Source: Prorocentrum cordatum
Taxonomy: Eukaryota
Length of the DNA stretch: 64,000 nt
Direction: 5' to 3'
Assembly: GCA_963575745.1 (NCBI GenBank)
Contig: CAUYUJ010000310.1
Span: 1 to 64,000, forward strand
Shown here: positions 25,671 to 41,756 of the stretch, in pieces
Position numbering within the stretch: position 1 is the first letter of the stretch
How the letters are laid out: each line of letters opens with the position of its first letter
Program-made: the position numbers and the translations under genes
Notes under the pieces: generated by a model
What the model was told of the DNA's origin: nothing
Databases searched by the model: none
Seen by the model: the letters and a program-made list of their open reading frames with translations, nothing else

Positions 25671-25775
25671 CGGAGGGGGAGGAGACGAGCAGGCACCGCA
25701 CTTCTACATTACGCGGAAAAGACAGTGCTAAGCAGCAGCGGCTGCCTACAAGGCAAGGGCGCGCGAGTAGCCTCG

Positions 25776-28700
25776 CTACCGGCGAGTTTCCTCGCTATTA
25801 AAGCGCACCTGCCCGCGGGTTTCCCCGCTAGCTCGGGAGGCAGGGCCGTCCTGAGACGACCTGCCCGCCCTATGCGGTGTATGTTTCTTCAGCTCGTGCT
25901 TGAAGGATTGCTGGCCGGCCATTACTTGTGGGAGCAACGCGCGGTCAATACTACCTTTGGTATGACCATCGGCAGTCATATCCCGCGTGTCACACCATTG
26001 AACGCTTTCAACGATTCCGCGCTCCATCATCTGGCGGATCCAGCTAATGTGCCCAAGCAGAGTACATTCTGTGGGCTTCTTCAGATCTTTGCTAGATAAA
26101 GACTTGAAGACAGACTCGGCATCAATAGTCAGAGTGACTTTGATACATAGACCACCCATTTCCAATATGTTCTTTAACTGTGTGGGGGTCAATGGTCCCG
26201 AGTGTAGCTCGTGGAGCGTTACAATGGTCGGGTAGCAGTCTTCCAAGTTGTGGGCTGCTGCCAGTGTTTCCGCAGAGTAGCTCGAACGCACCTGCAGTCG
26301 ATGAGACTTGCAGTATGCGTCCACCAGGTGCACGACGGGTTTCCCCGCTTGCGTGTGGCCACGCCTCAGCAGGTTAGCCCCGCGGATACCATAGCCTTTG
26401 ACTTCGTCGTCTTCATCTCCGTTGAGACGACGATAGCCAGAATCGCTATGCAGGTCGACTTCTCCTGTTGGGGTCATAGCTTGATACACGATCTTCTTCG
26501 GACCTGCCTGTAGTTTTCTGGTAACCGCGTTTAGTCGTCGTACCTGGATGTTTGTCGGTTCCTGGATACGTTGTAGTGAGACAACATAGACCATCAGCCA
26601 TACCTGCGTGATCAACGCATAGGCTAGAGCGCCACGAAGACTGACGAACATATCAGAAATCGTCTTTGTCGCTTTGCTCTCAGGATCAGCTCCTGTGAGT
26701 TCTGGATGTGTGATAGGACGAAGCTGTTTGATGTATTCGTCCTGATCAAGAGTGACGCTCCCATCATCGGTCTTGTTATACCGAACGGCACAGTTTGTGT
26801 ATGTGTGCTTGTTCAGTTTGCACTTCCCAAACGTATCTTCAACACACTTGACATACTTGTCAATAGCCTCTTCCTTCCCAGTCATATTGATGTCATCAAC
26901 GTGCTTGGCTGTCAAGAGGTTTGAGCTCATCTCGAACTCTTCGTCGTATGAAGTAGGCTGTAGCCCAAAGCTCCTAGTGATGGACCTGAGCTTCAGCGAG
27001 AATGCCCTGGGGGCATCCTTCGTGCCCGTCCCCGGCTTCAGACACCGAAGACAATGCTTTGATTCGTCATATGACTCAAAGCCTGGCAGTGTGCGAAGGA
27101 CAGCTGCTGACCCAGGTGGTAGTGTGAAGCACACCACGCGCTCTTTCTCGCCCGTTGCCGCGGCGAGCTCGCTATAGGTCAGTCCCTTCAAGAAAGCCAT
27201 GTTGATGTCCAGGGAAGCGATGATCCAAGCTTTGTTGCATGCAGCAGAACTTGCGAGCAGTCTCTGGCTTGACCTCCTTGCCGTGCCAGAGAAGGTTTCG
27301 ACATCAAAGGCTTCAAGGTCCATGAAGCCACGGAGTACCAAGCGTAACCTGATCGTCCTTTCCATTTCGCCCTTTTCGTTCTTGACAAACTTCCATTTGT
27401 ATACGTAGCGTGAAGTCATGATGTTAGACGCTTTGCTCAAGTCAGTCATCTGGAAGCATTTGTTGTCAAGCCAAGTCTTCAATTCTGTGTAAAGGGCTTT
27501 GGAAACTTTGACCGGATTTGCTTGGATGTCGGCCTTCGTGAGTAGATCGTCTTCCTTGACGACCACGGCACGTTTGGAAGCAGCACTAACGTATACTCGC
27601 ATAGTTGTGACGCTGCTGTCATCCAACAATCGGTGTTGCTGCTCGGACAGGACGACTTTGGACATGTCTGCTGTGAAGCAGAGCTCGATGTACTTCCCGT
27701 GCTCATCGGAGTCCAGATCATATTTACAGTCCGGATCCGTGGAGCATAAGGGAACGTAGTAAGAAGTGTCCATGTCGTATCCTGGCGGGTGACCCCGCTC
27801 CGGCAAGTGGCCTTGCACATCTTCACAGGTCGTAGAGACTAACACACACTGTGTGTCTGTCATGTATGTGGGAACTGCATGCATGACTTCTTCTGTGTCA
27901 GCTTCGAGGAGTGTTCTGTCATCCATCAGTTCAGCATACCACGACTTCAAGACAAAGGCATCCAGATCTTCTTCTGTTTCCTCTATGATGGTCGGGAGCC
28001 GACCATCGTTATCCGTAGGAGGCTCCTCAGGAGCAGCTGCTGGAGGTGACTCGCTTGGTGGTGGACCATCAGCGAGTTCCTCAAACTTAGTGAGGTCTCG
28101 GTCAAATCCAGCAGACGACTTCCTGGATTTAAGACGCTGGATGATGCGTGAGTGTGTAGATCCTGTGATGTCATAGATGTTCAAGGCAGTGCCATCAGCT
28201 TCATAGTAATGAAAACCAGGGGTCACATCATTATCATAGTGCACTAGTGTACAGCTGTCTGCATAGGGTGCAGCAGGCAACTTCGTCAGGCTCTTGGCAA
28301 GTCGTACAGCAACAACGTTTTCAATACGAAAGTAGTTGCGTATGAGGTACTGAAGAGCCAAGTGCACCTTAGGCGAAAGTCGGCTCGCAGCAGTCATCTG
28401 CAGCCGACCCTGTTTCGCTGGTAGATATCCGAAAGTCATGGCGGGTTTCCCCGCTGGCAGACCGGCAATAAAGGCCAATACTGTCCGAAGGGCCGTATTG
28501 TCCGATCCTATCTCGCGGACCATAAGTGCTTCGATGTACAGCGTGTGTCGTGTGTCAGGATACTGTACTCGCACCTCGCGACTGCCGACCTTCACGATGA
28601 CCTGGCCTCGGTCAGGTTCGTTGCGGATGACCGGGTATGGACCACTCCATCCACCCCAGTCGTCTTTCGTGGTGGTCGGGCGATGATAGTCCACGAGATC

Positions 28701-31700
28701 TCCCTCTTTGTAGTGAAATTCACCCGTAGCAGTAGTCTTCGTACGGAGAGCCCTGTTCGTCTTGGCAACCGCAGTGGCCTGCGTGATTGCCTCCAGACTA
28801 ACCCTCCTGATTGTTTCCTCCCTTGAGTGATCTGATGATTCAGCGGACTGATCATGATCCAAGACAGGGAAATCGGGAAGCATAGCTGGTTGTCTGCCAT
28901 ACAGCGCATTGTACGGAGACACTTCATTGTAGAAGGTAAATGCGTTGCTGGCAAACAAGGCTTCATGTAAGAGACGAGTGAAATTGAGAGGAATATTTAA
29001 TCTATTCAATTCTTCTCCCATCACGTGTAAGAGGTGTCGCAGGATGCCGTTCCTAGCTTCGATAGTTGTGGCGTGTTGGCCACGCGCTCGGATACGAAGC
29101 TCTGTTCCCTTAGCCTTAAGGATGGCCTTTGCTGTATCATTATTCAGTGCTCCTTCCCCATCGGAGTATAAGATTTTAGCAGGGCCATGTTGCATCCAAG
29201 TCGTATGATAGGCATCGAGAACAGTATGCATGGCTTTATCAGGAATCTCTGTGCCAGCTGCCCAGCGAATACAACGGTCGATGATGTGAAAAACAATATG
29301 TTCCTGTTTGTAAAAGAAAAGATCACATTCGACTTCCTCGTTGAAACGTCCTGGCAGTGACACAGAAGGCATCACCGTGTTGCCTGGTTTGTCCCAGGCT
29401 CGACATTCTCTACACGAGTCACAAATGCCTTTGATCAGACTCAAACGGGTTTCACCCAGACCAACCTTGGTTGGAATCATCCGCATTTTTGGCTCCTTGG
29501 CATGAAACCATCTCAAGTGGAGTTTGCGGAGTTCTCGCTGCACTACAGCTGGGTCGAAGCTGCGCAGGTTTTGGAGGCTGAGCTGAACGTCGAAGCGAGT
29601 CCAATCAGGGAGCCTTGGCCTTGGCCTCGGCTCTGCTTGAGGCTGCGGCGGTGGTGGAGGATCTCCTCCCTCCATGCGTCCGCGCCTTGCTGCAACTTGT
29701 GGCAGTCTACGGTGATCGTCAGAGCTGCCAGCGCCAGTGTTGCCACCATTAGCCCCTTCGGCTCTGGTGATGTCATGGCTGCTGGCGCCTGCGGTTGGAT
29801 CGCCCTCGCCAGGCCGTGGCGGCCTAGGCGCGCGTATGCGCGCTCTCGCGGCCGGCGCCGCTTTTGCGGCTGGCGCCGCTTCTGCGGCTGGAGCCGCTTC
29901 CGCGGCTGGCGCCGCAGGAGCGGCTTGCCCCGCCGGGCGCGGCTGGCCAAAGTTATCTGGCAGCTTCCATTTTTCGGCGAATCTGCATTGGCCAGATATC
30001 TTGGTGTGGTGAGGATTGCTCTTCTGATATTCCTTCTTACAGCTTGGACAGTCCCAGTAATACGGTTCAACATCATACCACCGACACATCTTCGGATCCC
30101 TGCTGTGCTTTGGTGATTGCTTGTAGTTGTTGTCCACGCAGCCAGGGCACCCAAGACCGCCAGGTGGTGGTCGCCAGATTTCTCCGTTTGGGTGTCTCCG
30201 GATTGTTGGGTCGTCCAAGTCGTAGCCAGCACTGTTTGTTACGAACGCATAGCTGCGTTCACGATTCGCGAATGGATCGCGACCGTAAGCAAACAGGTCT
30301 TTGGCGATTTGCACCGCATCAACGATCAGTGACTGCATTCTGTAGGTATACTGTGCCGCCCTTGCTAGTTCTTTGTTACAAGCATTGGCGTGCACATGAT
30401 TACCTGGACAACGCTTGCCTCTGAAAGGTGCCAACAACTCTTCTTTGTTTGCCATCATCTGTGTTGGCTTGCGGATGTATTGTCCAAATGAATCTTTGAG
30501 ACCAGTCGTGCACTGATCAATAATCGTTTGGCAAGTGACCTTGCGTTGTGCCAGTTCCTTCCATGGCTGGATCTCATCCACCCACGTGCCCATTGGTTGT
30601 TCCCTGAGAAAGAAACGTCTTAGGTCGTCTTGTAATAGAGCGACTGTTCCACAGAACGTGATGTGAGGCAGGTCCTCTTTGTGGTGTTTAAGCCACGTAT
30701 CATGATTGACCTGTGCATTGAAATAGGAAGGAAGTCCAGTAGTTCTGCAGCTTGGCTGCAGAATCGTGATCTTGACAAAGCAAGTCTTGAGGTAGTGGAG
30801 GACTGCTCTTTGTACTTCCGAGTTTCCAAGGTCAACCATAGATATCTTGTCAAGGTTCCCGCCTGACGAGAGTCCCCTCTTGAAGGCTAATATGGATATA
30901 CCACCCTTGCCCCCACATAATTCAAGCATGTCCACTTGATTGTTTCTGCCGTAGCATAATGACTGGACCATCGAGAAGACATCAGCATGTGAGTCAGCGG
31001 GTTGCCCCGCCGGTAACATCATGAAGATGTCCTCTGATTCGCTGTCCGAGTCCGAGTCGTCAAGAGGAACGTCGTTGAAATATGTGGAGCAGTCAAGCCC
31101 TTTGAGGTCCTCTCCACAGTCGTCGTTACCGTCTTCCACTTTCTTCGGGACTTTCTTCGGTTTGATGCCGGCCTCTTTGTCAGCTTTCTGCTTTTCTTTC
31201 TGTTTTATCCTGGCATCAGTGGGCAACGCAGTTTCCGCGGAGAGATCCGCTGCGGAGGAATCCGCTGTTAAGTCAGGAAATGGCGGAATTTCAGGAAGGT
31301 TGTTGGTGGGTCGCGTTTGGCAACGCTCAATCGAAGGGGGAGGAGATCGATCGTCGTCGACGATCGTCACACGCTTTGGGCGTGGCCTTCGCGACTCACC
31401 GTCGCCATGAAGAACTGGAGCCGGAGGCTCCCAGTATAGCCGAGTACTGATGTTTGTAACCCCATCAGGTAATGGAGCTACATAATTGTACCCAGTTGGC
31501 TGATCCTGAATTCTAATATCTTGAACGATCTTATTCGTGTCCAGGTCGGTCGTGACTCTACGAACAACATGGTCCCATTGAGGGCCCTTTTGTGGGCATT
31601 GGACGTAGTGTCTGACCTTTTTGTCAACGCGAGTACACACGCTGAGGTGTACCGCACTCCGCTCATTCCTGATCATGTTGGCTTTATCGAGTTGATCAAG

Positions 31701-32375
31701 GAAGCGTGCAATAATGATAGCCAAAGTTTTATACCGAAACTCGGCACGTTGCTGATCTTGGCCATACCAATCCAAATCATGCTCCTTGTGTGAGCCACAA
31801 GTACATTTCCATAAGTTTATCGGTATATGAGGACAAGATGTAGCAACTTGTATATAAGAACCACTGGGATATTTACTGGATCGGTCAAACTTGATACCGA
31901 AATGACAGAGTCTCATTCGTATAATGCTTAGCTTCAAATCTTCGATAACATCTTTGATCGGACCCTGTTTCCAGAAATACCCGGGTGGCCCCAGGATAAC
32001 TATCTGCATTCTCAGAGCACGCGCTTTGATCAGGAGATTTTGTATACGTTGATAATGTGGTCCCGCCCTCTTTCCTGGAGTACGAACGTACCAATCAGAG
32101 GGTGTGGCCACCCACAACATATTGTAGTCTCCTGCCAACAAATTTCCCAAATACTGTGTTCCAGTTGAAGTCATTACCTCATTATGGGTAATCCGGTCGC
32201 ATATATATCCACGGGTTCGGAGTTCAGCGCAAGCTGTGCGAATATCTTCGATGACAAGACATTTTGAATGATATTTTTCCTCTCGGGCCTCAGCGCGGCC
32301 AACGTATGTCGCGAGGAGGCCGGTATTCGGCTTCTCTTCGCAAGCGAGCGCCGCCGGCGCGCCCGCCTGCCCCCG
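25776..32375 (-). CDS. pol: Copia-A Pol: MTase-like domains, Cys/His repeats, integrase (~28880-29530), RT (~26700-27480), RNase H (~25920-26460)
   Basis: LHLRWFH..CDSCREC (HHCC), CDLF/SDGE/IEARN (DDE), SRYVYKWK, RLVLRGF, LDINMAFL, HVDD, HSDSGY, SSYSAE, IDAES, ADGHTK. The frame stays open upstream of the ATG at 32174 up to the TGA at 32376-32378. Confidence 0.93.
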   Translation of the reverse strand, partial: RGQAGAPAALACEEKPNTGLLATYVGRAEAREEKYHSKCLVIEDIRTACAELRTRGYICDRITHNEVMTSTGTQYLGNLLAGDYNMLWVATPSDWYVRTPGKRAGPHYQRIQNLLIKARALRMQIVILGPPGYFWKQGPIKDVIEDLKLSIIRMRLCHFGIKFDRSSKYPSGSYIQVATSCPHIPINLWKCTCGSHKEHDLDWYGQDQQRAEFRYKTLAIIIARFLDQLDKANMIRNERSAVHLSVCTRVDKKVRHYVQCPQKGPQWDHVVRRVTTDLDTNKIVQDIRIQDQPTGYNYVAPLPDGVTNISTRLYWEPPAPVLHGDGESRRPRPKRVTIVDDDRSPPPSIERCQTRPTNNLPEIPPFPDLTADSSAADLSAETALPTDARIKQKEKQKADKEAGIKPKKVPKKVEDGNDDCGEDLKGLDCSTYFNDVPLDDSDSDSESEDIFMMLPAGQPADSHADVFSMVQSLCYGRNNQVDMLELCGGKGGISILAFKRGLSSGGNLDKISMVDLGNSEVQRAVLHYLKTCFVKITILQPSCRTTGLPSYFNAQVNHDTWLKHHKEDLPHITFCGTVALLQDDLRRFFLREQPMGTWVDEIQPWKELAQRKVTCQTIIDQCTTGLKDSFGQYIRKPTQMMANKEELLAPFRGKRCPGNHVHANACNKELARAAQYTYRMQSLIVDAVQIAKDLFAYGRDPFANRERSYAFVTNSAGYDLDDPTIRRHPNGEIWRPPPGGLGCPGCVDNNYKQSPKHSRDPKMCRWYDVEPYYWDCPSCKKEYQKSNPHHTKISGQCRFAEKWKLPDNFGQPRPAGQAAPAAPAAEAAPAAEAAPAAKAAPAARARIRAPRPPRPGEGDPTAGASSHDITRAEGANGGNTGAGSSDDHRRLPQVAARRGRMEGGDPPPPPQPQAEPRPRPRLPDWTRFDVQLSLQNLRSFDPAVVQRELRKLHLRWFHAKEPKMRMIPTKVGLGETRLSLIKGICDSCRECRAWDKPGNTVMPSVSLPGRFNEEVECDLFFYKQEHIVFHIIDRCIRWAAGTEIPDKAMHTVLDAYHTTWMQHGPAKILYSDGEGALNNDTAKAILKAKGTELRIRARGQHATTIEARNGILRHLLHVMGEELNRLNIPLNFTRLLHEALFASNAFTFYNEVSPYNALYGRQPAMLPDFPVLDHDQSAESSDHSREETIRRVSLEAITQATAVAKTNRALRTKTTATGEFHYKEGDLVDYHRPTTTKDDWGGWSGPYPVIRNEPDRGQVIVKVGSREVRVQYPDTRHTLYIEALMVREIGSDNTALRTVLAFIAGLPAGKPAMTFGYLPAKQGRLQMTAASRLSPKVHLALQYLIRNYFRIENVVAVRLAKSLTKLPAAPYADSCTLVHYDNDVTPGFHYYEADGTALNIYDITGSTHSRIIQRLKSRKSSAGFDRDLTKFEELADGPPPSESPPAAAPEEPPTDNDGRLPTIIEETEEDLDAFVLKSWYAELMDDRTLLEADTEEVMHAVPTYMTDTQCVLVSTTCEDVQGHLPERGHPPGYDMDTSYYVPLCSTDPDCKYDLDSDEHGKYIELCFTADMSKVVLSEQQHRLLDDSSVTTMRVYVSAASKRAVVVKEDDLLTKADIQANPVKVSKALYTELKTWLDNKCFQMTDLSKASNIMTSRYVYKWKFVKNEKGEMERTIRLRLVLRGFMDLEAFDVETFSGTARRSSQRLLASSAACNKAWIIASLDINMAFLKGLTYSELAAATGEKERVVCFTLPPGSAAVLRTLPGFESYDESKHCLRCLKPGTGTKDAPRAFSLKLRSITRSFGLQPTSYDEEFEMSSNLLTAKHVDDINMTGKEEAIDKYVKCVEDTFGKCKLNKHTYTNCAVRYNKTDDGSVTLDQDEYIKQLRPITHPELTGADPESKATKTISDMFVSLRGALAYALITQVWLMVYVVSLQRIQEPTNIQVRRLNAVTRKLQAGPKKIVYQAMTPTGEVDLHSDSGYRRLNGDEDDEVKGYGIRGANLLRRGHTQAGKPVVHLVDAYCKSHRLQVRSSYSAETLAAAHNLEDCYPTIVTLHELHSGPLTPTQLKNILEMGGLCIKVTLTIDAESVFKSLSSKDLKKPTECTLLGHISWIRQMMERGIVESVQWCDTRDMTADGHTKGSIDRALLPQVMAGQQSFKHELKKHTPHRAGRSSQDGPASRASGETRGQVRFNSEETRR
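30320..30935 (-). other. C5 cytosine methyltransferase-like domain in Copia-A Pol, between PR and INT
   Basis: ELCGGKGG (motif I-like), LQPSC (IV-like), REQP (VI-like), DQC..GL..RKPT (VIII-like); conserved in Copia-B. Confidence 0.7.
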
Positions 32376-35300
32376 TCAGCGGCGGTCGTGTGACCACGTT
32401 GCCGTCTGACTCGGGGGCATGCTGTTAGCGGATGGCTCCGCAGGAGTCGCTGGTGCGGCTACGCTCACGATCTCCACGCGGGTTGGCCCCGCAGAGTCCG
32501 ACGAGCCTCCGCCCGTGTAGCTTGGTGGTGGTGGCGGTGTCGCGGGTGGCCCCGCTTGGTTCTCAGGCGTCCATTTATTCACCGCCTCCTGGACTGCCCA
32601 GAATATCTTAGACTTCAGGGCATCCTTCATATGTGGCCAGGTCCCCTCGGGACACTGTTGGCCCTCCCACCAGCTGTTCAGCGTCCTGTCCACGATCAAA
32701 CGGGTCGTGTCTTCCAGGAGCTGCTTGTCGAGATACGGCTCGACAATGTACGTATCAGTCGTGGCGGTCATGGACTGTCCCGTCGCGGGTTGCCCCGCTG
32801 TGGTCTCGGCGGGTGGCCCCGCACTTACTCCGGCGGGTGGCCCCGCACTTACTCCGGCGGGTGGCCCCGCACTGACGGGGTCCTCTTCGTTCTCCGTCTC
32901 GGTGTAGCCATCTCGACTGCTGCGGATTGTGAAGGTGTTCGTGACCGTCTGGCTTTTAGCCCCGTCATACAAACCGCAGGGGATCGCGAGATGTCCCGAG
33001 GGAGTTTTCTTCGCCCTCAGGACCTTGGCACCCCTTCCCAGCTTCAGGGTGTAGTCACCGCTGGGGAAGATAACCTTCTGGTAGCCTGGCTTCAGCACGA
33101 TGATCGTGTCACGTGCTTCCATGGCTCCTAGGCCCCAGATGGCCGGGAGATTGGCACCCGAGCCTTCTGCGATGTTGGAGGCATACTCCTCGATACGGGG
33201 GCTTGCCTCATTGGCGTATTGCACCCCGATCTTGAAGTTGCCCATCTTCCGACATATCGCAGCACCCTCACCGACACCGTTGATGTAGAGGGTCTTGCTC
33301 AGGGTGCATATGGCAGGTCTGTGATTGTACCTGGCCATAATCTCCTGGAAGGTTCGCGCCGTATTGGCTCCAATGATGTTCACGTTGGAGCCAATGTCTA
33401 GCATGAACGAGATGCAGGGCATACCGTCTTCGTCAGGAAAGAATGTCCCATTTCGCGCTGCCAGAGCCATTGTACCATGGTCATCGGTGTGGTACGTAAT
33501 CTGTGAACCGAGTGTGCCTTTCAACAGGCGTTGTTCAAGCACCCATTGACTCATGGTTAACTCGGTGCACCACATCTGCTCATATTGGCGGCGCTCCTCC
33601 ACGGTAATTGGTTCCTGTTCGAGAACCCAATAATTCGCAGAGAGTGTGGACATCCATTCACCTCCTGGCGGCAGCGTGTCCGTGTCGTCACGTGCATAGG
33701 TCAGCCCCTCTGTATCGATCATGAATGTGGTGTGGAACTGGGCTGCCTCCGCGCTCTCAGCGCTTGCCCGGCTCCTAGCGCTGACCGGGCTTGCCACACG
33801 TGAGGTCCTGGATGATCCAGTTGGCCTTCGAGTCCCGCCTCCGCTCCTGCCACTCCGCCTGATGTTGGCCTCCATTGCCCTCAGGAAACCTGGATTTGGA
33901 GGCCCATTTGCGGGTGGCCCCGCTTTGGCGGCGGGAGCCGCTTCAGCGGGTGGCCCCGCAGCTGGGGGCTCCTGTGCTCGAAGCGTAGGCAGGATTGGCA
34001 TCTGGATGCCTTGCTCTGGCGCTGGCCAGGGGTATGCCTGTGCAGCTGGGGCACGTGCGGATGGCTCCGCCGATTGTGCGGCTCGAGCCTCTAGTGCCTC
34101 CACTGCTTCCCGTAGCCGACGCATTTCCCGGGCATCTGCCGCGTACCTCTCCTGCTGGCGCGCTTGTTCTGACTCAGCGTCGCGCTGTCCAGCATATGGG
34201 AAATGTGCTATAACTATGCCCGGCCCACGACATACAGCGCAGGGGGCCTCGTTCGGCGCACCTGGCCGCTGATTGCGGACGTGCTGCTGTGCAACACGAT
34301 CCCAGCATATATCGTGGAAGAAGTGCCCACACGCCAGTCTCCACACTATGGTGCCCATCTCGTAGGTGTCCATACAGATTGGGCACTGTGTGAAGTTGTA
34401 GTCTGAAATAACTGGAGCAGGCACGTCTGGGCGAGTCCGAGCTTGGCGCTCGAAAGTGGTTTCGCCCTCCCGATATGGCGTCGGTGGCGGTCGTCTATCT
34501 GTCCGTTCAGCGGGTGGCCCCGCGTCTGCGGGTGTCCCCGCTTGGGTCTCACGCTCGATCCTTCTCTGGATCGCGCGTTGTTGGCGCAGCCTGGCGTTGT
34601 CCCGAGCCTGCTGCCTAGATGCCAGTATCGCTTGCTGCGTGTTGTGCACGTCGCGGATGTAGTCTGGCATGCTGCCCATAGCGGCTGGCACCGCGAGACC
34701 AGCTGGCTGAACTACGGTCTCGGGGTCCGTCGGCGTGGGCATGTAGGCGTAGTGCGGCATAGACTGCGCATCGACCGCTCGTGTAAACTGCAAACGAAAC
34801 ATCTCATTGGCAAGATTCCGAGTGTATTCGTTCGCAGGTGGCCCCGCAATCATAGGAGTGTTATTCATCTGCGCGTAGTACTCCGGGTACATCGGCGCGT
34901 CCATGGCCTGTGCCTCTGCTGGTCCATGATTGTCCCATCCATATATTGGGTGTGATGCTATTCCTGGAATAAACACCTGTCGATATGGATTCGTGGGATC
35001 AGCATTTGGAGCATCTTCAGAAGTCCAGCTCCAGAGAGGCCGAAAGTCGCCATGATTCGTAACATCTATGTTGCGGTTCCGCAACAGGCTGGGCACTCTA
35101 TCAGCTTGTTGCTGCAGAAAGGTAGCCTGTGCTCTTAAGTTGGCTGCCCGACGTTCATAGTCTGACCCTTGCTGTCCGTCAGCGGGTGGCCCCGCGTGTG
35201 CGGGTGGCTCCGCAGGCGTTCGCTCGGCGGGTGTCCCCGCAGCCACTCCTCCTTCACTACCCCTCGGAGTGCCAAAGGGAGTGGTCGCCTGGAGTGCTGC

Positions 35301-38300
35301 TGCGAGCGCCGGATTCCCGCGAATCGCCTGGAGTCTTTGCCACAAGCTGTTCTCGCTCGTTTCAGACGGCGGAGTCCGAAACGGCGAGCCACCATCTGAA
35401 CCGCCCATAGGGACAAACCTCGCACCTCCAGCTTGCTGCGGAGGGCGTTGTGGTTGTGGTCCTAGGACGCCTGGTGGCCCAGCAGGAGTGCGCAGGTTCC
35501 TCTGCTGTGCGTCTTGGATACCTGTATGCACTGCCCACGGGTCAGCACGATATAGCTGATCGGTCAGTCCAGAGACGTCGGCTGGTGTCAAATAGCTGTT
35601 GAGGGCCTGGACCCATGTCTGCTGGTCCGGCCTCCAAGGAGATGCTACCGTTGCTACTGGTGTGACCACTTGTTGCCATGAACCGTCCGAGGTGTCTACC
35701 GCGGGTGTCCCCGCACCTGCGGGTGGCCCCGCTTCAGGCATGACCTCGTCCTCCTGGGCATTCATCATGAGGACTGTCTGTGTGTCGTACGGTCGTGGAG
35801 CAACATCTTGCTCGGTCATGATCAAATTGAATGGGCGACCGTCCGTCTTAGTCCAGCCCTTTAGGTACATGGCGTGATCTTCCATTACACCCAGAGTTCT
35901 GTCACACATTTTAAGTGGCAGGTAGTCATCGGTGCGAATCCTGTCCGCGGGTTGGCCCCGCCTCCGCGACTTGTCATAAGCCAGCGGATTGCTCCAGGCT
36001 TCGCCGACCCGATATTTCGCAATGCTCACAATCTGGAGGATATGATCGGGCGGTATACGTCCGTCGTGGCCCCGTGTCATGACTATGTCATTTGCTGATC
36101 TCCATAGGGAGAAGCCACTGGACAGCATCTTGTTGATGCTGCAGAATATGAGCACCTCCGAGTCAGGACGGATGCCCGATTGAATCCTCGGGTCGCCCGG
36201 GAGGTAGGGGCAGCCGTGCACAAATTGGCGCCCCCCCTTCCTTTTAGGGTTGTCCTGTGCGAGGCATGAAAGGCCATTAGCAAGGATGTCCTTGACATAC
36301 TCCCACTGTGTCCCGTGGATGAAATATACTGGGTCGTCTGGTTCTTTCATCCATGTTGTGATCGGCTTATAAAGCGACTCGGGACAGTGGATGCCTGGAC
36401 TGCTGTGGCCGTTCGTGGCTCTGATGAAGTACTGTGGCCTGCGTGCCTTTGGTCGAAACCTGGGAGGCAGCAGCATGCTGTCCTCAACGCACTTCATCTG
36501 GAGCCTGCCCTTCTGCATGCCGTGATGGTCAATCATCTCACAGCAGTTTAGCAGCACCCAATACACGTATGACGTGTGGGGCCTGCCCTTGATCAGCACC
36601 TCGTGCATTTCACGATAGCCTTTCCACTGATCATTTTCAGTCCAGTTTGTCAGCAGATCGTCAACAACAACCCAGCCATCGTATGGATCGAAAGTGCTGA
36701 TCTTTTCGAAGTGTCGGCTGAATCCGTCCTTCCAATATGGACTATGGCGTAGGGCTGTAGAGAACCATATTGACACCTTGGTCATTTGCCCTTCGCGCGG
36801 CAAAGTCGGATCCATGCCGAACCTCTCCATGACCTTCAGGAGCTCTGCTTTATGCTGCGCAACGCGTAGTGGCGGCCTGTCTCGCAACATATTTCCCACG
36901 GTTTGTTGTTCACGTTCCCAGTCGTTGCGGCACTCGAAGTTACGACGATCAGGGCAATTAATGACCTCGTATCGGTCCGTATCGTCTCGAGTGACTCGTG
37001 GGTTTATGGTGCGCTTCGGGCCTTTGCCTTCAATGCCTTGCCAGTATTCGATGGCTCCCAGAGGGATGTTCCTAAGAACAGACATTACTGGCTGCCCGCG
37101 TGCGGGTGGCCCCGCTAATGCAGCTGGCGGCGCTTTAACGGGTGGCCCAGCAGAGCCTGCGGCTGACGAGGCAGCTCCAGCGGATGACTCCGCGCCAGGG
37201 TTCGGGTGACCTTGGTCAGCAACTGCATCATCGGTTAGTTTCTGTCGGTCGCCAAATTCTTTGAGGACTCTGAAGCGTTCTTCTCTTGAGAGAGTGCCTT
37301 CTGCGGGTGTCCCCGCTGCTGCAGCTGGCGCCGCTTTAGCGGGTGGCCCCGCAGAGCCATTGTCCTCCTTAGCCTTGGCGGCCGCTTCTGCCCGCACCGA
37401 CCTCGTCCCAGCTTCGGGCTTCGGCTGTGCTTTCATTCGTGCCGAACCTGGTCGTGGTGCAAGGCGCGGCTGATGCAGAGTTGGAGTCCAGTCACCTCGG
37501 AAGGCTGCCTTAGGCTGATTGCGAGCTTCATCCTTGACATCGCCTTGGGTCGCCGGTGGCATCGGGGTCGATGGTCCAGCAAAAGCCTTCCTCCTCTCCG
37601 TCACGGACAGACCGGGAGGATCTACCGGCTCAGGGTCGTCCGTCTTGGCGATCCCTCTGGCCTTCGCCCGCCCCTGTGTGCCTTCGGGGCTCTTGGACGG
37701 GTGCCTTTTCGCAGGAGTCGGTGAAGACGAGGAGTCGGCTTCAGGTCTTGGAGGTGGTCTGCTGCCCTTGCCCGGTTGTGGACCAGGAGGGTCTCTAGGA
37801 GGGCCTTCTGGCTGGCCATGATCATGGATGACCTGCCTCATCTGGTCGATGTCGGCAGTACCTTTTATGGCCAGCTTGTACTTGCCATTTTCATGGCGGT
37901 GAATTACCCTCGTGCAAAACCACTTCTGCGCCGAAGAGCTGTAGTACCAGCAGGCGCATCCATCAGGGAATGGATTCTCTGAGCCGTCTTCCGCCGCCCA
38001 TTCTTCATTCAGTTCGGTGTGGTCAGTGCCGGCGGCGGACCCAGCAGCAGATGCAACAGCTATCCAATCGTCGTCCGCGGACCCAGCGGCTGGCGCCGCG
38101 TCTGCGGGTGACCCCGCTTCTTTGCTGGATCCTGCGGGTGACCCCGCCTCTTTACTGGATCCTGCGGGTGACCCCGCCTCTTTATGGAATCGGAATCGGC
38201 GGTTCCATTCCTTGAGGCGATGGTCATTGGGAAGCTGTACCCAATTTTCCCTGACGATGTTGGCCACCTCTTCGGTCATAGGGACGCGATCGGCTTCGGT

Positions 38301-38657
38301 GATGCGCTTTCCTCCTCCAGGGACCTCCTTGTTAGGATCATGGACGTTGCCAGCGTCATCTCCATGAGACCAATTCCACGGGGTCTCACCGTGATGAGGA
38401 CTCCTGGAGGGGCGGTCCATTGGACAACTGCGCATGTGACCTTTGAAGGGCTCGCACTGACATACTAGTTTCCTGTATGTCTTGCGATCGTTGATGATCT
38501 CCTGTTTCTTAGCCCTTTTGTCCCAAGCCTCTGGCGTTTTGGTCTTGCCACCCTTGGTGCGTATTATCACGCCAGTTTCGTCCCTTTTGGTGCAGTACTC
38601 CTTAGAATACCAGTGGCGGATCACGTCCATCGAATAGGGTACCAGTTGATGTACCAA
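32376..38657 (-). CDS. Copia-A cargo-protease ORF: small Tudor/SH3-like domain, Tpt1/KptA, RING-H2, aspartic protease
   Basis: 2093-aa open frame; protease MLDIGSN (DIG at 33390-33398) ... PAIWGL. Confidence 0.88.
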   Translation of the reverse strand: MVHQLVPYSMDVIRHWYSKEYCTKRDETGVIIRTKGGKTKTPEAWDKRAKKQEIINDRKTYRKLVCQCEPFKGHMRSCPMDRPSRSPHHGETPWNWSHGDDAGNVHDPNKEVPGGGKRITEADRVPMTEEVANIVRENWVQLPNDHRLKEWNRRFRFHKEAGSPAGSSKEAGSPAGSSKEAGSPADAAPAAGSADDDWIAVASAAGSAAGTDHTELNEEWAAEDGSENPFPDGCACWYYSSSAQKWFCTRVIHRHENGKYKLAIKGTADIDQMRQVIHDHGQPEGPPRDPPGPQPGKGSRPPPRPEADSSSSPTPAKRHPSKSPEGTQGRAKARGIAKTDDPEPVDPPGLSVTERRKAFAGPSTPMPPATQGDVKDEARNQPKAAFRGDWTPTLHQPRLAPRPGSARMKAQPKPEAGTRSVRAEAAAKAKEDNGSAGPPAKAAPAAAAGTPAEGTLSREERFRVLKEFGDRQKLTDDAVADQGHPNPGAESSAGAASSAAGSAGPPVKAPPAALAGPPARGQPVMSVLRNIPLGAIEYWQGIEGKGPKRTINPRVTRDDTDRYEVINCPDRRNFECRNDWEREQQTVGNMLRDRPPLRVAQHKAELLKVMERFGMDPTLPREGQMTKVSIWFSTALRHSPYWKDGFSRHFEKISTFDPYDGWVVVDDLLTNWTENDQWKGYREMHEVLIKGRPHTSYVYWVLLNCCEMIDHHGMQKGRLQMKCVEDSMLLPPRFRPKARRPQYFIRATNGHSSPGIHCPESLYKPITTWMKEPDDPVYFIHGTQWEYVKDILANGLSCLAQDNPKRKGGRQFVHGCPYLPGDPRIQSGIRPDSEVLIFCSINKMLSSGFSLWRSANDIVMTRGHDGRIPPDHILQIVSIAKYRVGEAWSNPLAYDKSRRRGQPADRIRTDDYLPLKMCDRTLGVMEDHAMYLKGWTKTDGRPFNLIMTEQDVAPRPYDTQTVLMMNAQEDEVMPEAGPPAGAGTPAVDTSDGSWQQVVTPVATVASPWRPDQQTWVQALNSYLTPADVSGLTDQLYRADPWAVHTGIQDAQQRNLRTPAGPPGVLGPQPQRPPQQAGGARFVPMGGSDGGSPFRTPPSETSENSLWQRLQAIRGNPALAAALQATTPFGTPRGSEGGVAAGTPAERTPAEPPAHAGPPADGQQGSDYERRAANLRAQATFLQQQADRVPSLLRNRNIDVTNHGDFRPLWSWTSEDAPNADPTNPYRQVFIPGIASHPIYGWDNHGPAEAQAMDAPMYPEYYAQMNNTPMIAGPPANEYTRNLANEMFRLQFTRAVDAQSMPHYAYMPTPTDPETVVQPAGLAVPAAMGSMPDYIRDVHNTQQAILASRQQARDNARLRQQRAIQRRIERETQAGTPADAGPPAERTDRRPPPTPYREGETTFERQARTRPDVPAPVISDYNFTQCPICMDTYEMGTIVWRLACGHFFHDICWDRVAQQHVRNQRPGAPNEAPCAVCRGPGIVIAHFPYAGQRDAESEQARQQERYAADAREMRRLREAVEALEARAAQSAEPSARAPAAQAYPWPAPEQGIQMPILPTLRAQEPPAAGPPAEAAPAAKAGPPANGPPNPGFLRAMEANIRRSGRSGGGTRRPTGSSRTSRVASPVSARSRASAESAEAAQFHTTFMIDTEGLTYARDDTDTLPPGGEWMSTLSANYWVLEQEPITVEERRQYEQMWCTELTMSQWVLEQRLLKGTLGSQITYHTDDHGTMALAARNGTFFPDEDGMPCISFMLDIGSNVNIIGANTARTFQEIMARYNHRPAICTLSKTLYINGVGEGAAICRKMGNFKIGVQYANEASPRIEEYASNIAEGSGANLPAIWGLGAMEARDTIIVLKPGYQKVIFPSGDYTLKLGRGAKVLRAKKTPSGHLAIPCGLYDGAKSQTVTNTFTIRSSRDGYTETENEEDPVSAGPPAGVSAGPPAGVSAGPPAETTAGQPATGQSMTATTDTYIVEPYLDKQLLEDTTRLIVDRTLNSWWEGQQCPEGTWPHMKDALKSKIFWAVQEAVNKWTPENQAGPPATPPPPPSYTGGGSSDSAGPTRVEIVSVAAPATPAEPSANSMPPSQTATWSHDRR
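34225..34386 (-). other. RING-H2 zinc finger
   Basis: CPIC-x14-CGHFFHDICW-x18-PCAVCR. Confidence 0.88.
36030..36780 (-). other. kptA: Tpt1/KptA NAD-dependent RNA 2'-phosphotransferase domain
   Basis: S..LRH, DGWV.V..LL, KGRLQ, IRATNGHS, IHGT..ILANGL, RQFVH, SGIR, SANDIVMTRGHDGRIPP, all in canonical order. Confidence 0.87.
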
Positions 38658-40300
38658 TCCGGCACATGCTGAGCGGATACTCCAACGGAGTGCTCAGTAC
38701 TGTATGGATAGCCCGATGCATCATGTGTAGGGCGTCTGGGAGCTGAACGGCTCCTCCTGCGGGCTGGCCCCGCTGACGCACTACCACGTTCCATTGGCCT
38801 TTGATCGTCATGCTCTGAGTCTCGGGGAGGCGACGGTTGTCCCTCTTGGCGTAGCGCATGTCCTCCGAGTCCTCTGAGCTGTCCTGGACCATGAATACGT
38901 GTTGATACGGGCTTCGGAAGTACCCGATGTCGTTTAACTGCTCCATCGTGAGGTCGTTAAGGTCTATTTGATCACAACCTTGCATAAATACATCCATAGA
39001 CCAAGCGGGTGGCCCCGCTGTTGCGGCTGGCGTCACTTCGGCGGGTGACCCCGCTAGAGCCTGGAGTGCTGTCAGCATCTGAGGTGCCGACATGTCCGAA
39101 TCCAGGTATGGACGCAGCCGTGCAGCCCCTGGGCGCGACAGCAGGTCGTTCATGGTTATCTGCTGATGTGCTGGCGCACTCAGGAGTCGGATTGCTTCAG
39201 CGACCTGTTCTTGGAGCATGTCCTTATAGTCATCTTCCGCACCTTCGGAGTCAGAGTACGCGGGATGGCCCCGCATTTCGTCATCAGCGTCTCCCGCCTC
39301 CGAACCAGCTCGCGAAAGGTCTGGCAGCAACGGCGTGCCAATCACCTGCGGTGCCAGCGCGGCGGTGAGCTCTTCCTCGGTCGCCGGGACGGTCTCAGCT
39401 TCGGAGACCTCGTCGCCGGCGGGTGGCCCCGCTGGAAGACCGAACCAAGCATTGAACGCGACCTCGTCGACCTCGTCCCAGCCGTGGAACTCGTCGAAGA
39501 GGGTCACTGCGTAGTCTTCCAGGGCTACGGTTGCTTCAGCGTAGCGGGCCATCACGTAATACGTGGAGGAGCCCGCAGCGGGAGCCGCTTCTGGATTGAC
39601 GTAAAACTCGTAGTCAATGTAGTCTATGTCATCCATAAAAGAATTTTGAGCCAAATGTACGGATCCCTTTCCTTTCCCCTTCGGGCATTGATCGCGCAAA
39701 TGATCTGTGCTACCGCATGTATGACACTTCATAGTATTGCCAGAAGCGTCCCTAGGGTTGCCCCTCCGCCCTTTTCCCTTACCGGAGGTCCGCCTGTGAC
39801 CCCGACCTTTGCCTCCGATAAGAACTTCTTCAAAGGCTATATCAGTTAAGGACGTGAGGAAAGCAGTAATACCCCTACCATGCATACGGCGTCTGCGACC
39901 CCCTTTGCCACGACCCTTTCCATATCGTTTGAAATGTCGGCGTACTGCACGTCTCACTTTTCTGACTGGTTTCTTCATAAAGCGCCTCCAACGGCGTTTT
40001 GATTTGCGATAGGCCATAAAAGCGGCTTCCGCTCTTTGTTGTTCAGAAAGGTGAGTGTCATCCGCTGGATAGTCATTACCAGCAGAGACTATGCCATTGT
40101 GCTCATCGTCAGATGAGGTATCTGCGTCAGTGCCAGATTCAAACGGTGAGGGTGGCTGAGACCCTTGAGCGGATGACTCCGCTTGGCCCCAGAGGGTTGT
40201 GCCCGAGGGCGGGCTTGCAGTGTAGGCGGCGCCTGGCGAGTAGTTCGACCAGGCGTTCGCCTCAGCTGCCTCTGCCGATGCCTGGCCAGTCTGCCCTAAG
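38602..40300 (-). CDS. gag: Copia-A Gag C-terminal part with basic region and CCHC zinc knuckle (39685-39727)
   Basis: CHTCGSTDHLRDQC preceded by K/R/G-rich segment; in the +1 frame relative to the upstream gag ORF. Confidence 0.8.
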
Positions 40301-41605: not shown

Positions 41606-41756
41606 CGTCAATGGAAAAGGTATTTTCCGATCTCTGATGCAAGTCGTGCGCCTCGGTGAGGCACAATCACATATTTGGCCGGGCCCGGCTTGAGCCAGGC
41701 ACGGCAGCGGTACATGCTCGATTTATACCTCGCCTTTAACCTTCTCCGTTTAAAGT
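41472..41756 (-). repeat. Copia-A 5' LTR (285 bp)
   Basis: Matches 25386-25670. Confidence 0.95.

What the first reader, a model, noticed from the sequence alone, without database searches (positions are those of the whole stretch)
32340..32378. Conserved in-frame UGA plus 12-bp hairpin between protease and the rest of pol: candidate programmed readthrough
Seen in Copia-A: ORFs 32376-38657 and 25776-32174 share one frame and are separated only by a TGA, followed by CGGGG GCAGGCGGGCGC-GCCGGCG-GCGCTCGCTTGC. Seen in Copia-B: an in-frame TGA at the homologous place (63285-63287), followed by AGAT GGCAGGGCGACG-TCGCCCCCT-CGTCGTCTTGCC. Both form 12-bp stems (two G-U pairs each) with GCAG at +6 and CTTGC ending at +36, but the upper stem sequences differ, which indicates compensatory change. 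The protein between the stop and the next Met is conserved (VIED.R.ACA.LRTRGYICDRI.HNE). Known: UGA-CGG with a 3' structure is a viral readthrough class, and Candida Tca2 uses a gag-pol UGA. Inference: here the recoding site lies after the protease and controls MTase-INT-RT-RH levels.
Basis: partly seen in the sequence, partly recalled or inferred. Interest (0 to 1): 0.85.

Follow-up and report, generated by a model that had tools for sequence, protein, structure and literature searches.

The report
Conserved leaky stop in giant retrotransposon
A 16-kb copia-type retrotransposon and its relatives in aquatic metagenomes all carry one in-frame stop codon just after the protease, followed at a fixed distance by a co-varying RNA stem-loop, which looks like a signal that lets a share of ribosomes read on into the integrase and reverse transcriptase.

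Summary

**Copy A.** This is a young element at 25386-41762 on the minus strand, with near-identical LTRs. It has a single internal stop in 4294 codons, TGA at 32376-32378, followed by a 12-bp hairpin at 32340-32370. The degraded copy B has the same arrangement at 63285-63287.

**Relatives.** I fetched 17 related metagenomic loci.
- 15 of the 17 carry an in-frame stop at the same place: TAG in 13, TGA in 2.
- With A and B, that gives 17 sequences that align without a gap from the stop to a Cys codon 12 codons later.

**Stem-loop.**
- RNAalifold predicts a 10-bp helix starting 5 nt after the stop.
- 6 of the 10 pairs show compensatory changes.
- A four-fold degenerate third position (column 36) is T in all 17.
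- The hairpin loop is also complementary to a G-rich run 10-20 nt further on. This fits a pseudoknot, with moderate support.

**Reading frames.**
- The upstream frame is the same frame in all 16 sequences that have upstream DNA.
- In 11 of 18 sequences there is no AUG before the conserved downstream domain.

**Verdict.** The best reading is programmed UAG/UGA readthrough (confidence 0.75). It is inferred from comparison only and has not been measured.

The "MTase" label is unverified. The spacer is 5 nt, shorter than the 8 nt or more of known stimulators. I rate this a new variant of a known kind.

The parts
41472..41762 (-). 5' LTR of element A
   Evidence: Direct repeat D13: 291 nt, 99% identical, 16086 nt apart. 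The pairwise alignment is identical over about 283 nt.
38602..40401 (-). gag-like ORF (599 aa). It lies in the frame one base behind ORF2, so ORF2 is the +1 frame.
   Evidence: ORF list. zf-CCHC E=0.002 at 18.5 bits, below Pfam's cut-off of 20.8. The frame relation was read.
32379..38657 (-). ORF2, 2093 codons. It holds a Tpt1/KptA domain (36069-36680), a RING finger (34227-34388) and a retropepsin-like protease (about 32976-33401).
   Evidence: Pfam PTS_2-RNA 1.6e-15 and zf-RING_2 1.5e-06. Protease: motifs LDIGS, PAIWGLGAM and GHLAIPC, and a fold model whose top hits are XMRV, Ddi1 and FIV proteases at E 2.5e-3 and weaker.
32376..32378 (-). In-frame TGA, the proposed readthrough codon, in the context UGA-CGG
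   Evidence: the only internal stop in 4294 codons.
32371..32375 (-). 5-nt spacer CGGGG between the stop and the helix
   Evidence: Gap-free alignment A2. The helix starts at column 9.
32340..32370 (-). Stem-loop S1. The family-wide 10 bp are 32361-32370 with 32340-32349. Copy A adds 2 bp. The loop is 32352-32358.
   Evidence: Fold, RNAalifold and pair counts, covariance-model hit at 38.4 bits.
32328..32331 (-). Candidate 3' strand of a second helix: GCCG pairing with loop CGGC at 32353-32356. The placement is ambiguous in copy A. CCGGC at 32319-32323 and a site at 32298-32304 are alternatives.
   Evidence: Read from A2, the script table and the own-versus-permuted duplex energies.
25776..32375 (-). 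ORF3, 2199 codons. In order it holds a conserved N-terminal domain of unknown function (about 31690-32264), a region with an LELCGGKGG motif (30900-30926), integrase-like motifs (29151-29519) and RVT_2 (26685-27464).
   Evidence: Translation, Pfam RVT_2 8.9e-11, motif positions. There is no Pfam hit for the other parts.
25386..25676 (-). 3' LTR of element A
63285..63287 (-). In-frame TGA of the degraded copy B, in the context UGA-AGA
   Evidence: Copy B matches A at 42-77% amino-acid identity in six pieces that change frame.
63248..63280 (-). Stem-loop S1 of copy B: 12 bp with a 9-nt loop
   Evidence: Fold, alignment, covariance-model hit at 36.7 bits.
63225..63231 (-). Candidate 3' strand of the second helix in copy B: GGGGGGT pairing with loop GCCCCCT at 63260-63266
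   Evidence: Script table.

Best explanation
**Proposed mechanism.** The stop codon after the protease is a programmed leaky stop. Most ribosomes terminate there and release the upstream polyprotein, which in copy A carries Tpt1, RING and protease. A minority insert an amino acid at UGA (or UAG in most relatives). They continue in the same frame into the conserved N-terminal domain, integrase, reverse transcriptase and RNase H. The enzymes are therefore made in a fixed lower amount than the upstream products.

**Proposed stimulator.** It is the 3' context (UAG-G or UGA-C) together with a conserved helix of 10 bp that starts 5 nt after the stop. The helix has an invariant base, CAGG paired with CUUG, including an invariant G-U pair. 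Its loop probably pairs with a G-rich run 10-20 nt downstream, forming an H-type pseudoknot.

**Shown:**
- the stop is conserved in position;
- the distance from the stop to the helix is fixed;
- the helix covaries;
- the two ORFs keep the same frame.

**Inferred:**
- that ribosomes read through the stop;
- that the structure stimulates this;
- how efficient it is.
For: **1. Stop conservation.**
- 17 sequences (A, B and 15 of 17 fetched loci) have a stop at the same place: TAG in 13, TGA in 4.
- A 16th locus, L006, also has a TGA-C just after the same upstream motif, but with a different downstream structure.

**2. These are not decay mutations.**
- Copy A has near-identical LTRs and one stop in 4294 codons.
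- In L004 and L010 the TAG is the only stop in the frame across the whole locus: 514+1207 and 521+1230 codons.

**3. Fixed geometry in a variable linker.**
- The 17 sequences align without a gap from the stop to column 39.
- The linker to the conserved domain ranges from 28 to 81 codons.

**4. Helix.**
- RNAalifold predicts columns 9-18 paired with 30-39. Six of the 10 pairs carry compensatory changes, and pair 14-34 has five pair types.
- Counted over 12 pairs, 87.3% of cells are paired, against 44.6-51.5% when the partner is slid by 1-3 columns.
- The covariation score is 0.401 against 0.179 in shuffles; 0 of 500 shuffles reach it.

**5. RNA-level constraint at silent sites.**
- Column 36 is a four-fold degenerate third position in 17 of 17 and is T in all 17.
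- Column 9 is four-fold degenerate in 16 of 17. It covaries with the Cys third position in column 39: A-U in 13, G-C in 4.

**6. Same frame.** All 16 sequences with upstream DNA have the protease frame open in the frame of ORF3, for 51 to 2105 codons.

**7. No start codon.** The first in-frame ATG lies 30-112 codons inside the conserved domain in 11 of 18.

**8. Context.** There is a G after TAG in 13 of 13 and a C after TGA in 3 of 4. AA precedes TAG in 10 of 12. These contexts are named as favourable in PMC10085805 (passages) and PMC13517186 (passages).

**9. Second helix.** Loop-to-downstream duplex energies sum to -112.4 for 9 representatives, against a permuted mean of -81.5 (sd 7.7); 0 of 5000 permutations reach it.

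**10. Specificity.** A covariance model finds only these 17 sites in 120,786 bases. The next hit has E=0.076 and lies on the opposite strand of a hairpin.

**11. Predicted proteins.** None of the 150 best-listed of 634 related proteins has its best stretch across the stop position. Two long ones, P0106 and P0103, begin inside the 3' arm of the hairpin.
Against: - No readthrough product, ribosome profile or reporter result exists.
- Tca2, the closest copia-type precedent, has a UGA and a predicted pseudoknot, yet its junction did not direct readthrough in S. cerevisiae (abstract, PMC2194720).
- The spacer is 5 nt. [quoted passage not shown] With the stop in the A site, the lower pairs would lie inside the ribosome.
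- The hairpins are not unusually stable for their composition. 63-nt folds of L008, L005 and L010 give z -0.59, -1.62 and -0.10. 91-nt folds of A and B give z -0.91 and -1.99.
- The second helix could not be counted column by column, because neither the nucleotide nor the codon alignment lines up its 3' strand. In single sequences, shuffled downstream segments reach the observed score in 2-64% of trials. The two control regions also show a small own-sequence advantage (fractions 0.029 and 0.13).
- The 17 sequences are related, so counts of cells overstate the number of independent events.
- L009 shows no motif, and L006 has a different structure.
- Copy B has UGA-A, a less favourable context.
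- The invariant Gln (CAG) and Cys (TGY) codons could partly reflect constraint on the protein.
Confidence: 0.75

Rival explanations
1. The stop is a true terminator and ORF3 is made independently. The route could be an internal promoter or subgenomic or spliced RNA, or termination followed by re-initiation at a non-AUG codon. The conserved hairpin would then serve that process or something unrelated, such as packaging, dimerisation or RNA processing.
For: - In Tca2 a minor promoter lies in the junction, and the junction alone gave no readthrough in S. cerevisiae (abstract).
- The invariant CAG|G at columns 10-13 resembles a splice acceptor (my reading).
- 7 of 18 sequences do have an ATG before the conserved domain.
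Against: - An independent ORF3 would not need the frame of the upstream ORF, yet 16 of 16 keep it. All linker length changes are in whole codons.
- 11 of 18 lack an ATG before the conserved domain.
- The region from the stop to the domain stays open for 28-81 codons in every case.
- The helix keeps a fixed distance from the stop.
- One contig from an RNA library, X20 record 9, runs unbroken from 32258 to 32414 across the stop. This is weak evidence, because DNA can be present in such libraries.
Confidence: 0.13
2. The stop is removed at the RNA level before translation, for example by A-to-I editing of UAG or UGA to UGG directed by local structure, as at the hepatitis delta amber/W site (recalled), or by a short intron.
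For: Only UAG and UGA occur at the motif-bearing site. Both can become UGG by a single A-to-I change. An RNA structure lies nearby.
Against: - The stop codon lies outside the covarying helix.
- The RNA-library contig X20 record 9 covers the site with one differing letter in 157 bases and no joint.
- ADAR-type editing is known from animals (recalled), whereas the named relatives here are from an alga's transcriptome (Pyramimonas sp.).
- The preference for UAG and UGA is equally expected for readthrough.
Confidence: 0.04
3. The finding is chance or decay. Under this reading the TGA is a disabling mutation, and the hairpin in copy A is just one of the many in-frame GC-rich palindromes that encode AG.PA throughout the element.
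For: - The apex of the hairpin in A (32353-32366) matches the dispersed palindrome GCGGGNNNNCCCGC with one mismatch.
- AGAPA, at residues 2098-2102, is one of 23 AG.PA motifs in the polyprotein.
- The stability of the hairpin is unremarkable.
Against: - The stop and the helix recur in 17 sequences down to about 40-50% amino-acid identity. Most of them lack AG.PA at this place.
- The helix shows compensatory changes.
- Copy A is young and otherwise intact.
Confidence: 0.02

Closest known systems
Gammaretrovirus (MoMLV) gag-pro-pol readthrough signal: UAG-G, 8-nt purine-rich spacer, H-type pseudoknot
   Same: An in-frame UAG followed by G, then a helix whose loop pairs downstream. The element lies inside coding sequence, and the downstream ORF is in the same frame (passages of PMC13517186; here).
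   Different: - The spacer is 5 nt, not 8.
- The stop lies after the protease, not before or inside it.
- There is no sequence similarity and no Rfam match.
- UGA is used as well as UAG.
- The base CAGG/CUUG, with its G-U pair, is invariant.
- The second helix is only moderately supported.
Tca2 (pCal) of Candida albicans, a Ty1/copia element with gag-UGA-pol and a predicted pseudoknot
   Same: It belongs to the copia-type superfamily and has an in-frame UGA with a predicted 3' structure (abstract of PMC2194720).
   Different: The Tca2 stop lies between gag and pol. Here gag is in another frame and the stop follows the protease. The Tca2 junction alone did not direct readthrough in S. cerevisiae. 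No comparative covariation evidence was seen for Tca2 in the text I read.
Fission-yeast Tj1, Tosmo1-3 and Tcry1 (Ty3/gypsy) gag-TGA-pol
   Same: An in-frame stop conserved across related LTR retrotransposons in a favourable context. The Tj1 stop is reported as essential for transposition (passages of PMC10085805).
   Different: Those signals are a strictly conserved 8-nt context, GAA-TGA-CT, between gag and pol. The passages I read name no downstream structure. The superfamily is different.
Alphavirus and coltivirus UGA-C readthrough with an extended 3' stem-loop
   Same: UGA-CGG followed by a stem-loop. The review names UGACGG as an efficient hexanucleotide when the downstream structure is present (passage of PMC13517186). 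Three of the 4 TGA sequences here have TGACGG.
   Different: Those structures are long extended stem-loops that start 8 nt or more after the stop, in RNA viruses of animals. Here the element is compact, about 50 nt, and starts after 5 nt.
Skipper of Dictyostelium (Leng et al. 1998)
   Same: It is cited as an LTR retrotransposon that uses an in-frame stop (passage of PMC10085805). I recall that its protease is set apart from the rest of pol.
   Different: It is a Ty3/gypsy element. The paper is not held, so its details are recalled and not checked.

Membership tests
Programmed stop-codon readthrough signal with a 3' RNA structure | One in-frame UAG or UGA separates two long ORFs in the same frame | tested here: met
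   One stop in 4294 codons in A. The frame is the same in 16 of 16 sequences with upstream DNA.
Programmed stop-codon readthrough signal with a 3' RNA structure | The stop is conserved in position among diverged relatives | tested here: met
   A, B and 15 of 17 loci share it. L006 has a stop at the same place without the motif, and L009 is uninformative.
Programmed stop-codon readthrough signal with a 3' RNA structure | Favourable nucleotide after the stop (UAG-G, UGA-C) | tested here: met
   TAG-G in 13 of 13 and TGA-C in 3 of 4. Copy B has TGA-A.
Programmed stop-codon readthrough signal with a 3' RNA structure | Downstream structure supported by compensatory change | tested here: met
   A 10-bp helix with 6 covarying pairs. 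0 of 500 shuffles reach the covariation score, and slid controls show 45-52% paired against 87%.
Programmed stop-codon readthrough signal with a 3' RNA structure | Spacer of about 8 nt or more between the stop and the structure | tested here: not met
   The spacer is 5 nt in all 17. The review gives 8 nt or more for MoMLV, VEEV, SINV and CTFV.
Programmed stop-codon readthrough signal with a 3' RNA structure | A measured readthrough product that depends on the signal | not testable with these tools
   This needs reporter assays, ribosome profiling or proteomics.
Gammaretroviral readthrough pseudoknot, or any curated Rfam element | Match to a curated covariance model | tested here: not met
   Rfam scan of 32150-32500 at E up to 10 gave only a chance-level ybhL match on the other strand.
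H-type pseudoknot | The loop of helix 1 pairs with downstream sequence, and the pairing covaries | tested here: inconclusive
   - A complementary run of 4-7 nt is found in 17 of 17 sequences.
- Own-versus-permuted energies favour own pairing (0 of 5000 permutations reach it), with smaller effects in the control regions.
- A column-wise count was not possible.
Ty1/copia (Pseudoviridae) LTR retrotransposon | Long terminal repeats flank the coding region | tested here: met
   LTRs at 25386-25676 and 41472-41762, 99% identical.
Ty1/copia (Pseudoviridae) LTR retrotransposon | Copia-type reverse transcriptase (RVT_2) | tested here: met
   PF07727 at E 8.9e-11 and 42.3 bits, above the cut-off of 31.6.
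Ty1/copia (Pseudoviridae) LTR retrotransposon | Integrase lies before reverse transcriptase | tested here: inconclusive
   Integrase-like motifs (H..H, C..C, D, D) at residues 3047-3169 precede RVT_2. Pfam finds no integrase family there. The motif reading is recalled knowledge.
Retropepsin (protease upstream of the stop) | D-[TS]-G-like active-site motif and the retropepsin fold | tested here: inconclusive
   - D-[LI]-G-S and PAILGL motifs are conserved in 10-11 sequences.
- The model has mean pLDDT 58, with a core of 70-85.
- The top hits are retropepsins, but weak: E 2.5e-3, TM about 0.5 on the target.
- Pfam Peptidase_A2_2 reaches only E 0.25.
   - No Pfam hit.
- No PDB profile hit at E up to 10.
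- The fold model has pLDDT 41.6 and is unusable. My chosen segment began after the LELCGGKGG motif, which weakens that test.
- The Atlas lead to DNA_methylase, score 0.87, is for the other domain (the N-terminal one) and is below its 0.9 line.

The most novel reading that the evidence does not exclude
This would be a new class of eukaryotic readthrough stimulator. It is a compact pseudoknot of about 50 nt that begins only 5 nt after the stop. It has an invariant CAGG/CUUG base with a G-U pair, and it works with either UAG or UGA. It belongs to an undescribed lineage of giant copia-type retrotransposons that is widespread in aquatic samples and carries RING, and in some members Tpt1, domains. 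In this lineage the recoding point sits after the protease. The element would thus set the ratio of protease-containing products to integrase and reverse transcriptase, rather than the ratio of Gag to Pol. Because the base of the helix would lie inside the ribosome when the stop is in the A site, the mechanism may differ from the entry-channel roadblock proposed for the 8-nt-spacer signals.
Probability: 0.45. Interest if true: 0.72.

Novelty: new variant of a known kind. Interest (0 to 1): 0.62.

Why it matters
In-frame stops that are read through are known from gammaretroviruses and from a few LTR retrotransposons. Well-supported stimulatory structures are few, and nearly all come from viruses of animals and plants.

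Here the comparative evidence is unusually clean:
- the stop type switches while its position is kept;
- silent sites are invariant or covary;
- the two ORFs always share a frame.

The element itself differs from the known ones in three ways:
- the spacer is 5 nt;
- the stop is placed after the protease;
- the host lineage is a giant copia-type family found in many aquatic samples.

It gives a short cassette of about 90 nt that could be tested directly. If the short spacer works, it bears on the open question of how downstream structures act on termination.

It also warns annotators that these elements will be called as two genes, or as pseudogenes, when they are probably intact.

Tried and rejected
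**Sequence collections**
- No whole genome is held for this window, so copies within the host genome could not be counted.
- Earlier findings of the scan: nothing by place, sequence or words.
- Viral contigs: 14 pattern matches, none a relative.
The single-protein query gave one weak, unrelated hit, L018 at E 2e-4, which I did not use.

**RNA family and structure searches**
- Rfam: no family.
- Column-wise counting of the second helix failed. MAFFT on nucleotides and a protein-guided codon alignment did not line up its 3' strand.

**Protein annotation**
- Pfam at loose thresholds found no protease, integrase or methylase family.
- The fold model of the methylase-like region had pLDDT 41.6, so I did not send it to a fold search.
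- PDB profile searches with A7 and A1 found nothing useful.

**Sequencing runs**
- X21 laid nothing.
- X20 covers only 7 of 30 bins.
- Of 97 variant places, 40 were listed and none lies in 32319-32378. The other 57 were not shown, so I claim no absence of variants.

**Papers**
- Leng 1998 (Skipper) and Gao 2003 (recoding survey) are not held.
- My recollection that dinoflagellate DNMT retroelements are copia-type was wrong. They are LINE and DIRS elements, and Symbiodinium copia lack a DNMT domain (passage, PMC5890265).
- Searches for a description of this family listed none.

**Explanations considered and rejected**
- An altered genetic code: both TAG and TGA occur at this site only, and both also end ORFs elsewhere.
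- Selenocysteine or pyrrolysine: the stop type switches between relatives.

Full report
**1. What is in the window**

On the minus strand lies a 16.4-kb LTR retrotransposon, copy A.
- Its LTRs are at 41472-41762 and 25386-25676. They are 99% identical over 291 nt and identical over about 283 nt in a pairwise alignment. The insertion is therefore young.
- A gag-like ORF occupies 38602-40401. Its zf-CCHC match has E 0.002, below Pfam's cut-off.
- ORF2 (32379-38657, 2093 codons) holds a Tpt1/KptA domain (E 1.6e-15) and a RING finger. Near its end it holds a retropepsin-like region.
- TGA 32376-32378 follows ORF2.
- ORF3 (25776-32375, 2199 codons) follows in the same frame and contains RVT_2, the copia-type reverse transcriptase (E 8.9e-11).
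- Read through, the frame has one internal stop in 4294 codons.

Copy B (about 56790-63998, minus strand) matches A at 42-77% amino-acid identity in six pieces that change frame, so it is decayed. It still has a TGA at the homologous place, 63285-63287.

**2.

Everything quoted is present:
- the spacer;
- the two 12-bp stems, each with two G-U pairs;
- GCAG and CTTGC at the same distances from the stop in both copies;
- differing upper stems;
- the conserved peptide between the stop and the next Met.

Folding energy alone would not carry the case.
- The 40-nt pieces fold at z -2.06 (A) and -3.29 (B).
- In 91-nt context the scores are z -0.91 and -1.99, and the minimum-energy fold of B does not contain the hairpin.

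**3. Relatives**

A protein search with the start of ORF3 found 16 relatives, from metagenomes and from a Pyramimonas sp. transcriptome set. Most begin a few residues upstream of the conserved domain.

An alignment of this domain (A1) retrieved 17 metagenomic loci with DNA. In each, I walked upstream in frame from the domain to the first stop.
- 15 of 17 loci show the same arrangement: a stop, five bases, then CAGG ... CTTG, with a Cys codon exactly 12 codons after the stop.
- 13 of these have TAG and 2 have TGA. A and B add two more TGA.
- L006 has a TGA-C just after the same upstream motif (…TTDH…), followed by a different, larger predicted structure (z -2.33).
- L009 starts at a TAA at the end of its contig and shows no motif.

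The upstream frame is open in the same frame in all 16 motif-bearing sequences that have upstream DNA.
- It stays open for 51 to 2105 codons, often to the end of the locus.
- The peptide just before the stop is conserved (…VIPCD.Y…FWTDH…).
- In L004 and L010 the TAG is the only stop in that frame in the whole locus.

A search of 1.84 billion representative proteins found 634 relatives. None of the 150 listed has its best stretch across the stop position. Two with long N-terminal extensions begin inside the 3' arm of the hairpin. These are gene calls on short contigs, so this is only consistent with the stop being widespread and is not proof.

**4. The helix**

The 17 sequences align without a gap for 60 nt from the stop (A2).
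- T1, A11, G12, G13, C26, C35, T36, T37 and G38 are invariant.
- RNAalifold on its own predicts a 10-bp helix, columns 9-18 with 30-39. Six pairs show compensatory change, and pair 14-34 occurs as A-U, U-A, C-G, G-C and G-U.

For the 12-pair version:

| Measure | Observed | Control |
|---|---|---|
| Cells paired | 87.3% | 44.6-51.5% in six slid versions; 75.8% in shuffles (0 of 500 reach it) |
| Covariation score | 0.401 | 0.179 in shuffles (0 of 500 reach it) |

Silent sites show selection on the RNA.
- Column 36 is the third position of a four-fold degenerate codon in all 17 sequences, yet it is always T. It forms an invariant G12-U36 pair.
- Column 9 is four-fold degenerate in 16 of 17. It is A where the Cys codon ends in T (13 sequences) and G where it ends in C (4 sequences).

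A covariance model built from A2 finds these 17 sites and nothing else at E below 0.07 in 120,786 bases of window and loci. The element therefore occurs once per copy, at the stop. The 17 hits are the model's own training set. The informative result is the absence of other hits.

**5. A probable second helix**

In every sequence the loop, around the invariant C26, is complementary to a G-rich run 10-20 nt after the helix, and the two change together:

| Loop | Downstream run | Sequences |
|---|---|---|
| TGGCCC | GGGCCA | L003, L008, L013 |
| TGCCCTA | TAGGGCA | L004 |
| TGCCCTC | GAGGGCA | L005 |
| CCCCC | GGGGG | L010 |
| GCCCC | GGGGC | L011 |
| GCCCCCT | GGGGGGT | B |
| CGGC | GCCG | L001, L015; by my reading also A |

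The amino acid at the downstream run varies (Gly, Arg, Trp) while the bases GG are kept.

Duplex energies of each loop with its own downstream segment beat permuted pairings:
- 9 representatives: -112.4 against -81.5, sd 7.7; 0 of 5000 permutations reach it.
- All 17: -204.8 against -153.3; 0 of 5000.

Two control regions show smaller effects (fractions 0.029 and 0.13). Some of the signal is therefore shared base composition.

Against single-sequence shuffles the pairing is not significant: 2-64% of shuffles reach the observed score. The 3' strand could not be aligned column by column. I rate the pseudoknot as probable, not shown. In copy A its placement is ambiguous.

**6. Does ORF3 need the stop to be read through?**

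- The stretch from the stop to the conserved domain is open in every case (28-81 codons) and varies only by whole codons.
- The first in-frame ATG lies 30-112 codons inside the conserved domain in 11 of 18 sequences, copy A among them.
- An independently started ORF3 would lose conserved sequence and would have no reason to keep the upstream frame.
- G follows TAG in 13 of 13 and C follows TGA in 3 of 4. AA precedes TAG in 10 of 12. These contexts are named as favourable in passages of PMC10085805 and PMC13517186.

**7. What lies on either side**

Upstream:
- D-[LI]-G-S, NGVG and PAILGL.SM motifs are conserved.
- An AlphaFold model has mean pLDDT 58.4, with a core of 70-85. Its best Foldseek matches are XMRV protease (E 2.5e-3), Ddi1 and FIV proteases. 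The matches are weak but uniform.
- Pfam gives only Peptidase_A2_2 at E 0.25.
- A RING finger upstream of the protease is shared by L012, L011, L002 and L006.

Downstream:
- A conserved domain of about 190 residues has no Pfam or PDB match.
- A region with an LELCGGKGG motif follows. My fold test was also weakened by a badly chosen start.
- Integrase-like motifs and RVT_2 come next.

**8. Sequencing runs**

The stretch is found in runs of 15 studies, mostly aquatic metagenomes.
- In run X1, 4700 contig pieces were laid, with summed depths in the thousands. The element is highly repeated there.
- One contig from an RNA library (X20, record 9) covers 32258-32414 with one differing letter and no joint. 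This is weak evidence against splicing at the site.
- Rare variants in X1 shorten the linker upstream of the stop but keep the stop (tables 5c and 7).

**9. Comparison with what is known**

- Readthrough of an in-frame stop is an established strategy of gammaretroviruses and some LTR retrotransposons (passage with citations).
- The present element differs in four ways:
  - its spacer is 5 nt;
  - it has an invariant CAGG/CUUG base;
  - it uses either stop codon;
  - it lies after the protease.
- The review states that known stimulators have spacers of 8 nt or more and that shortening the MuLV spacer by a codon severely impairs readthrough. The short spacer is therefore both the main novelty and the main doubt.
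- Tca2 shows that a stop with a predicted pseudoknot is not proof of readthrough (abstract).
- Searches listed no paper that describes this family or this signal. Gao 2003 and Leng 1998 could not be read and may bear on the claim of novelty.

**10. Verdict**

- I estimate programmed readthrough at 0.75.
- I rate it a new variant of a known kind, with moderate to high interest for people who work on recoding and on transposable elements.

Noticed in passing
window 38602-38696, minus strand: The gag ORF ends at TAA 38602-38604. ORF2 is open from 38693 in the +1 frame, an overlap of about 90 nt. I saw no Ty1-like CUU-AGG-C heptamer. ORF2 has its own ATG near 38630. Whether ORF2 is reached by +1 frameshifting, by its own start or otherwise is open. 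It would be a second control point upstream of the stop.
   Followed up: partly
window 25815-41325 (35 sites), for example 32809-32870 and 38104-38177: The 14-nt palindrome GCGGGNNNNCCCGC occurs 48 times in the window against 8.9 expected (0 of 100 shuffles reach this count). 35 of the sites lie inside element A. Most read GCGGGT[GT][GAT]CCCCGC, lie in frame and encode AG.PA. There are 23 AG.PA motifs in the polyprotein. One, with a single mismatch, forms the apex of the readthrough hairpin.
   Followed up: partly
L003 359-376, 388-405 and 424-441: Members of the TAG clade carry an analogous in-frame palindrome, GTGCATGG(G/A)AACATGCAC. It encodes VHGNMH and is repeated in the linker. Variants such as RGNAHS and HGNLHS recur in other relatives. 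Short hairpin-forming repeats inside coding linkers seem to be a trait of the whole family. Their role is unknown.
   Followed up: partly
window 36069-36680, minus strand: An RNA 2'-phosphotransferase (Tpt1/KptA) domain (E 1.6e-15) sits inside the retrotransposon polyprotein of copy A. The relatives' upstream ORFs that I scanned show the RING finger but no Tpt1 hit, though most are cut by the locus end.
   Followed up: partly
window 42400-46200: Next to the 5' LTR lies a long array of 14-15-nt units of the type GGGCGAAACCGAC(C/T), in several repeat families (D2-D5, D8, D10-D12). AT skew reaches 0.65 at 44-46 kb.
   Followed up: no
window 22403-22694 and 24232-24560: 9-nt tandem repeats lie in very G+C-rich DNA (about 70%), next to two long ORFs (13568-17080 and 18765-22220, plus strand) that have no Pfam match.
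   Followed up: no
window 52834-56076, minus strand: A third copia-type ORF (1080 aa, RVT_2 at E 4.8e-11) is not matched by the polyprotein of copy A at E 1e-5. It is a different family of element, lying directly beside copy B.
   Followed up: no
L006 2758-2847: This relative has TGA-C at the homologous place but lacks the CAGG/CUUG element. A larger stem-loop is predicted from 7 nt after the stop (-38.3 kcal/mol, z -2.33). It may be a replaced stimulator.
   Followed up: partly
window 31376-33378 in run X1: Summed contig depth is 900-7700 across the stretch, with 4700 pieces laid. The element is present in very many near-identical copies in that organism.
   Followed up: no
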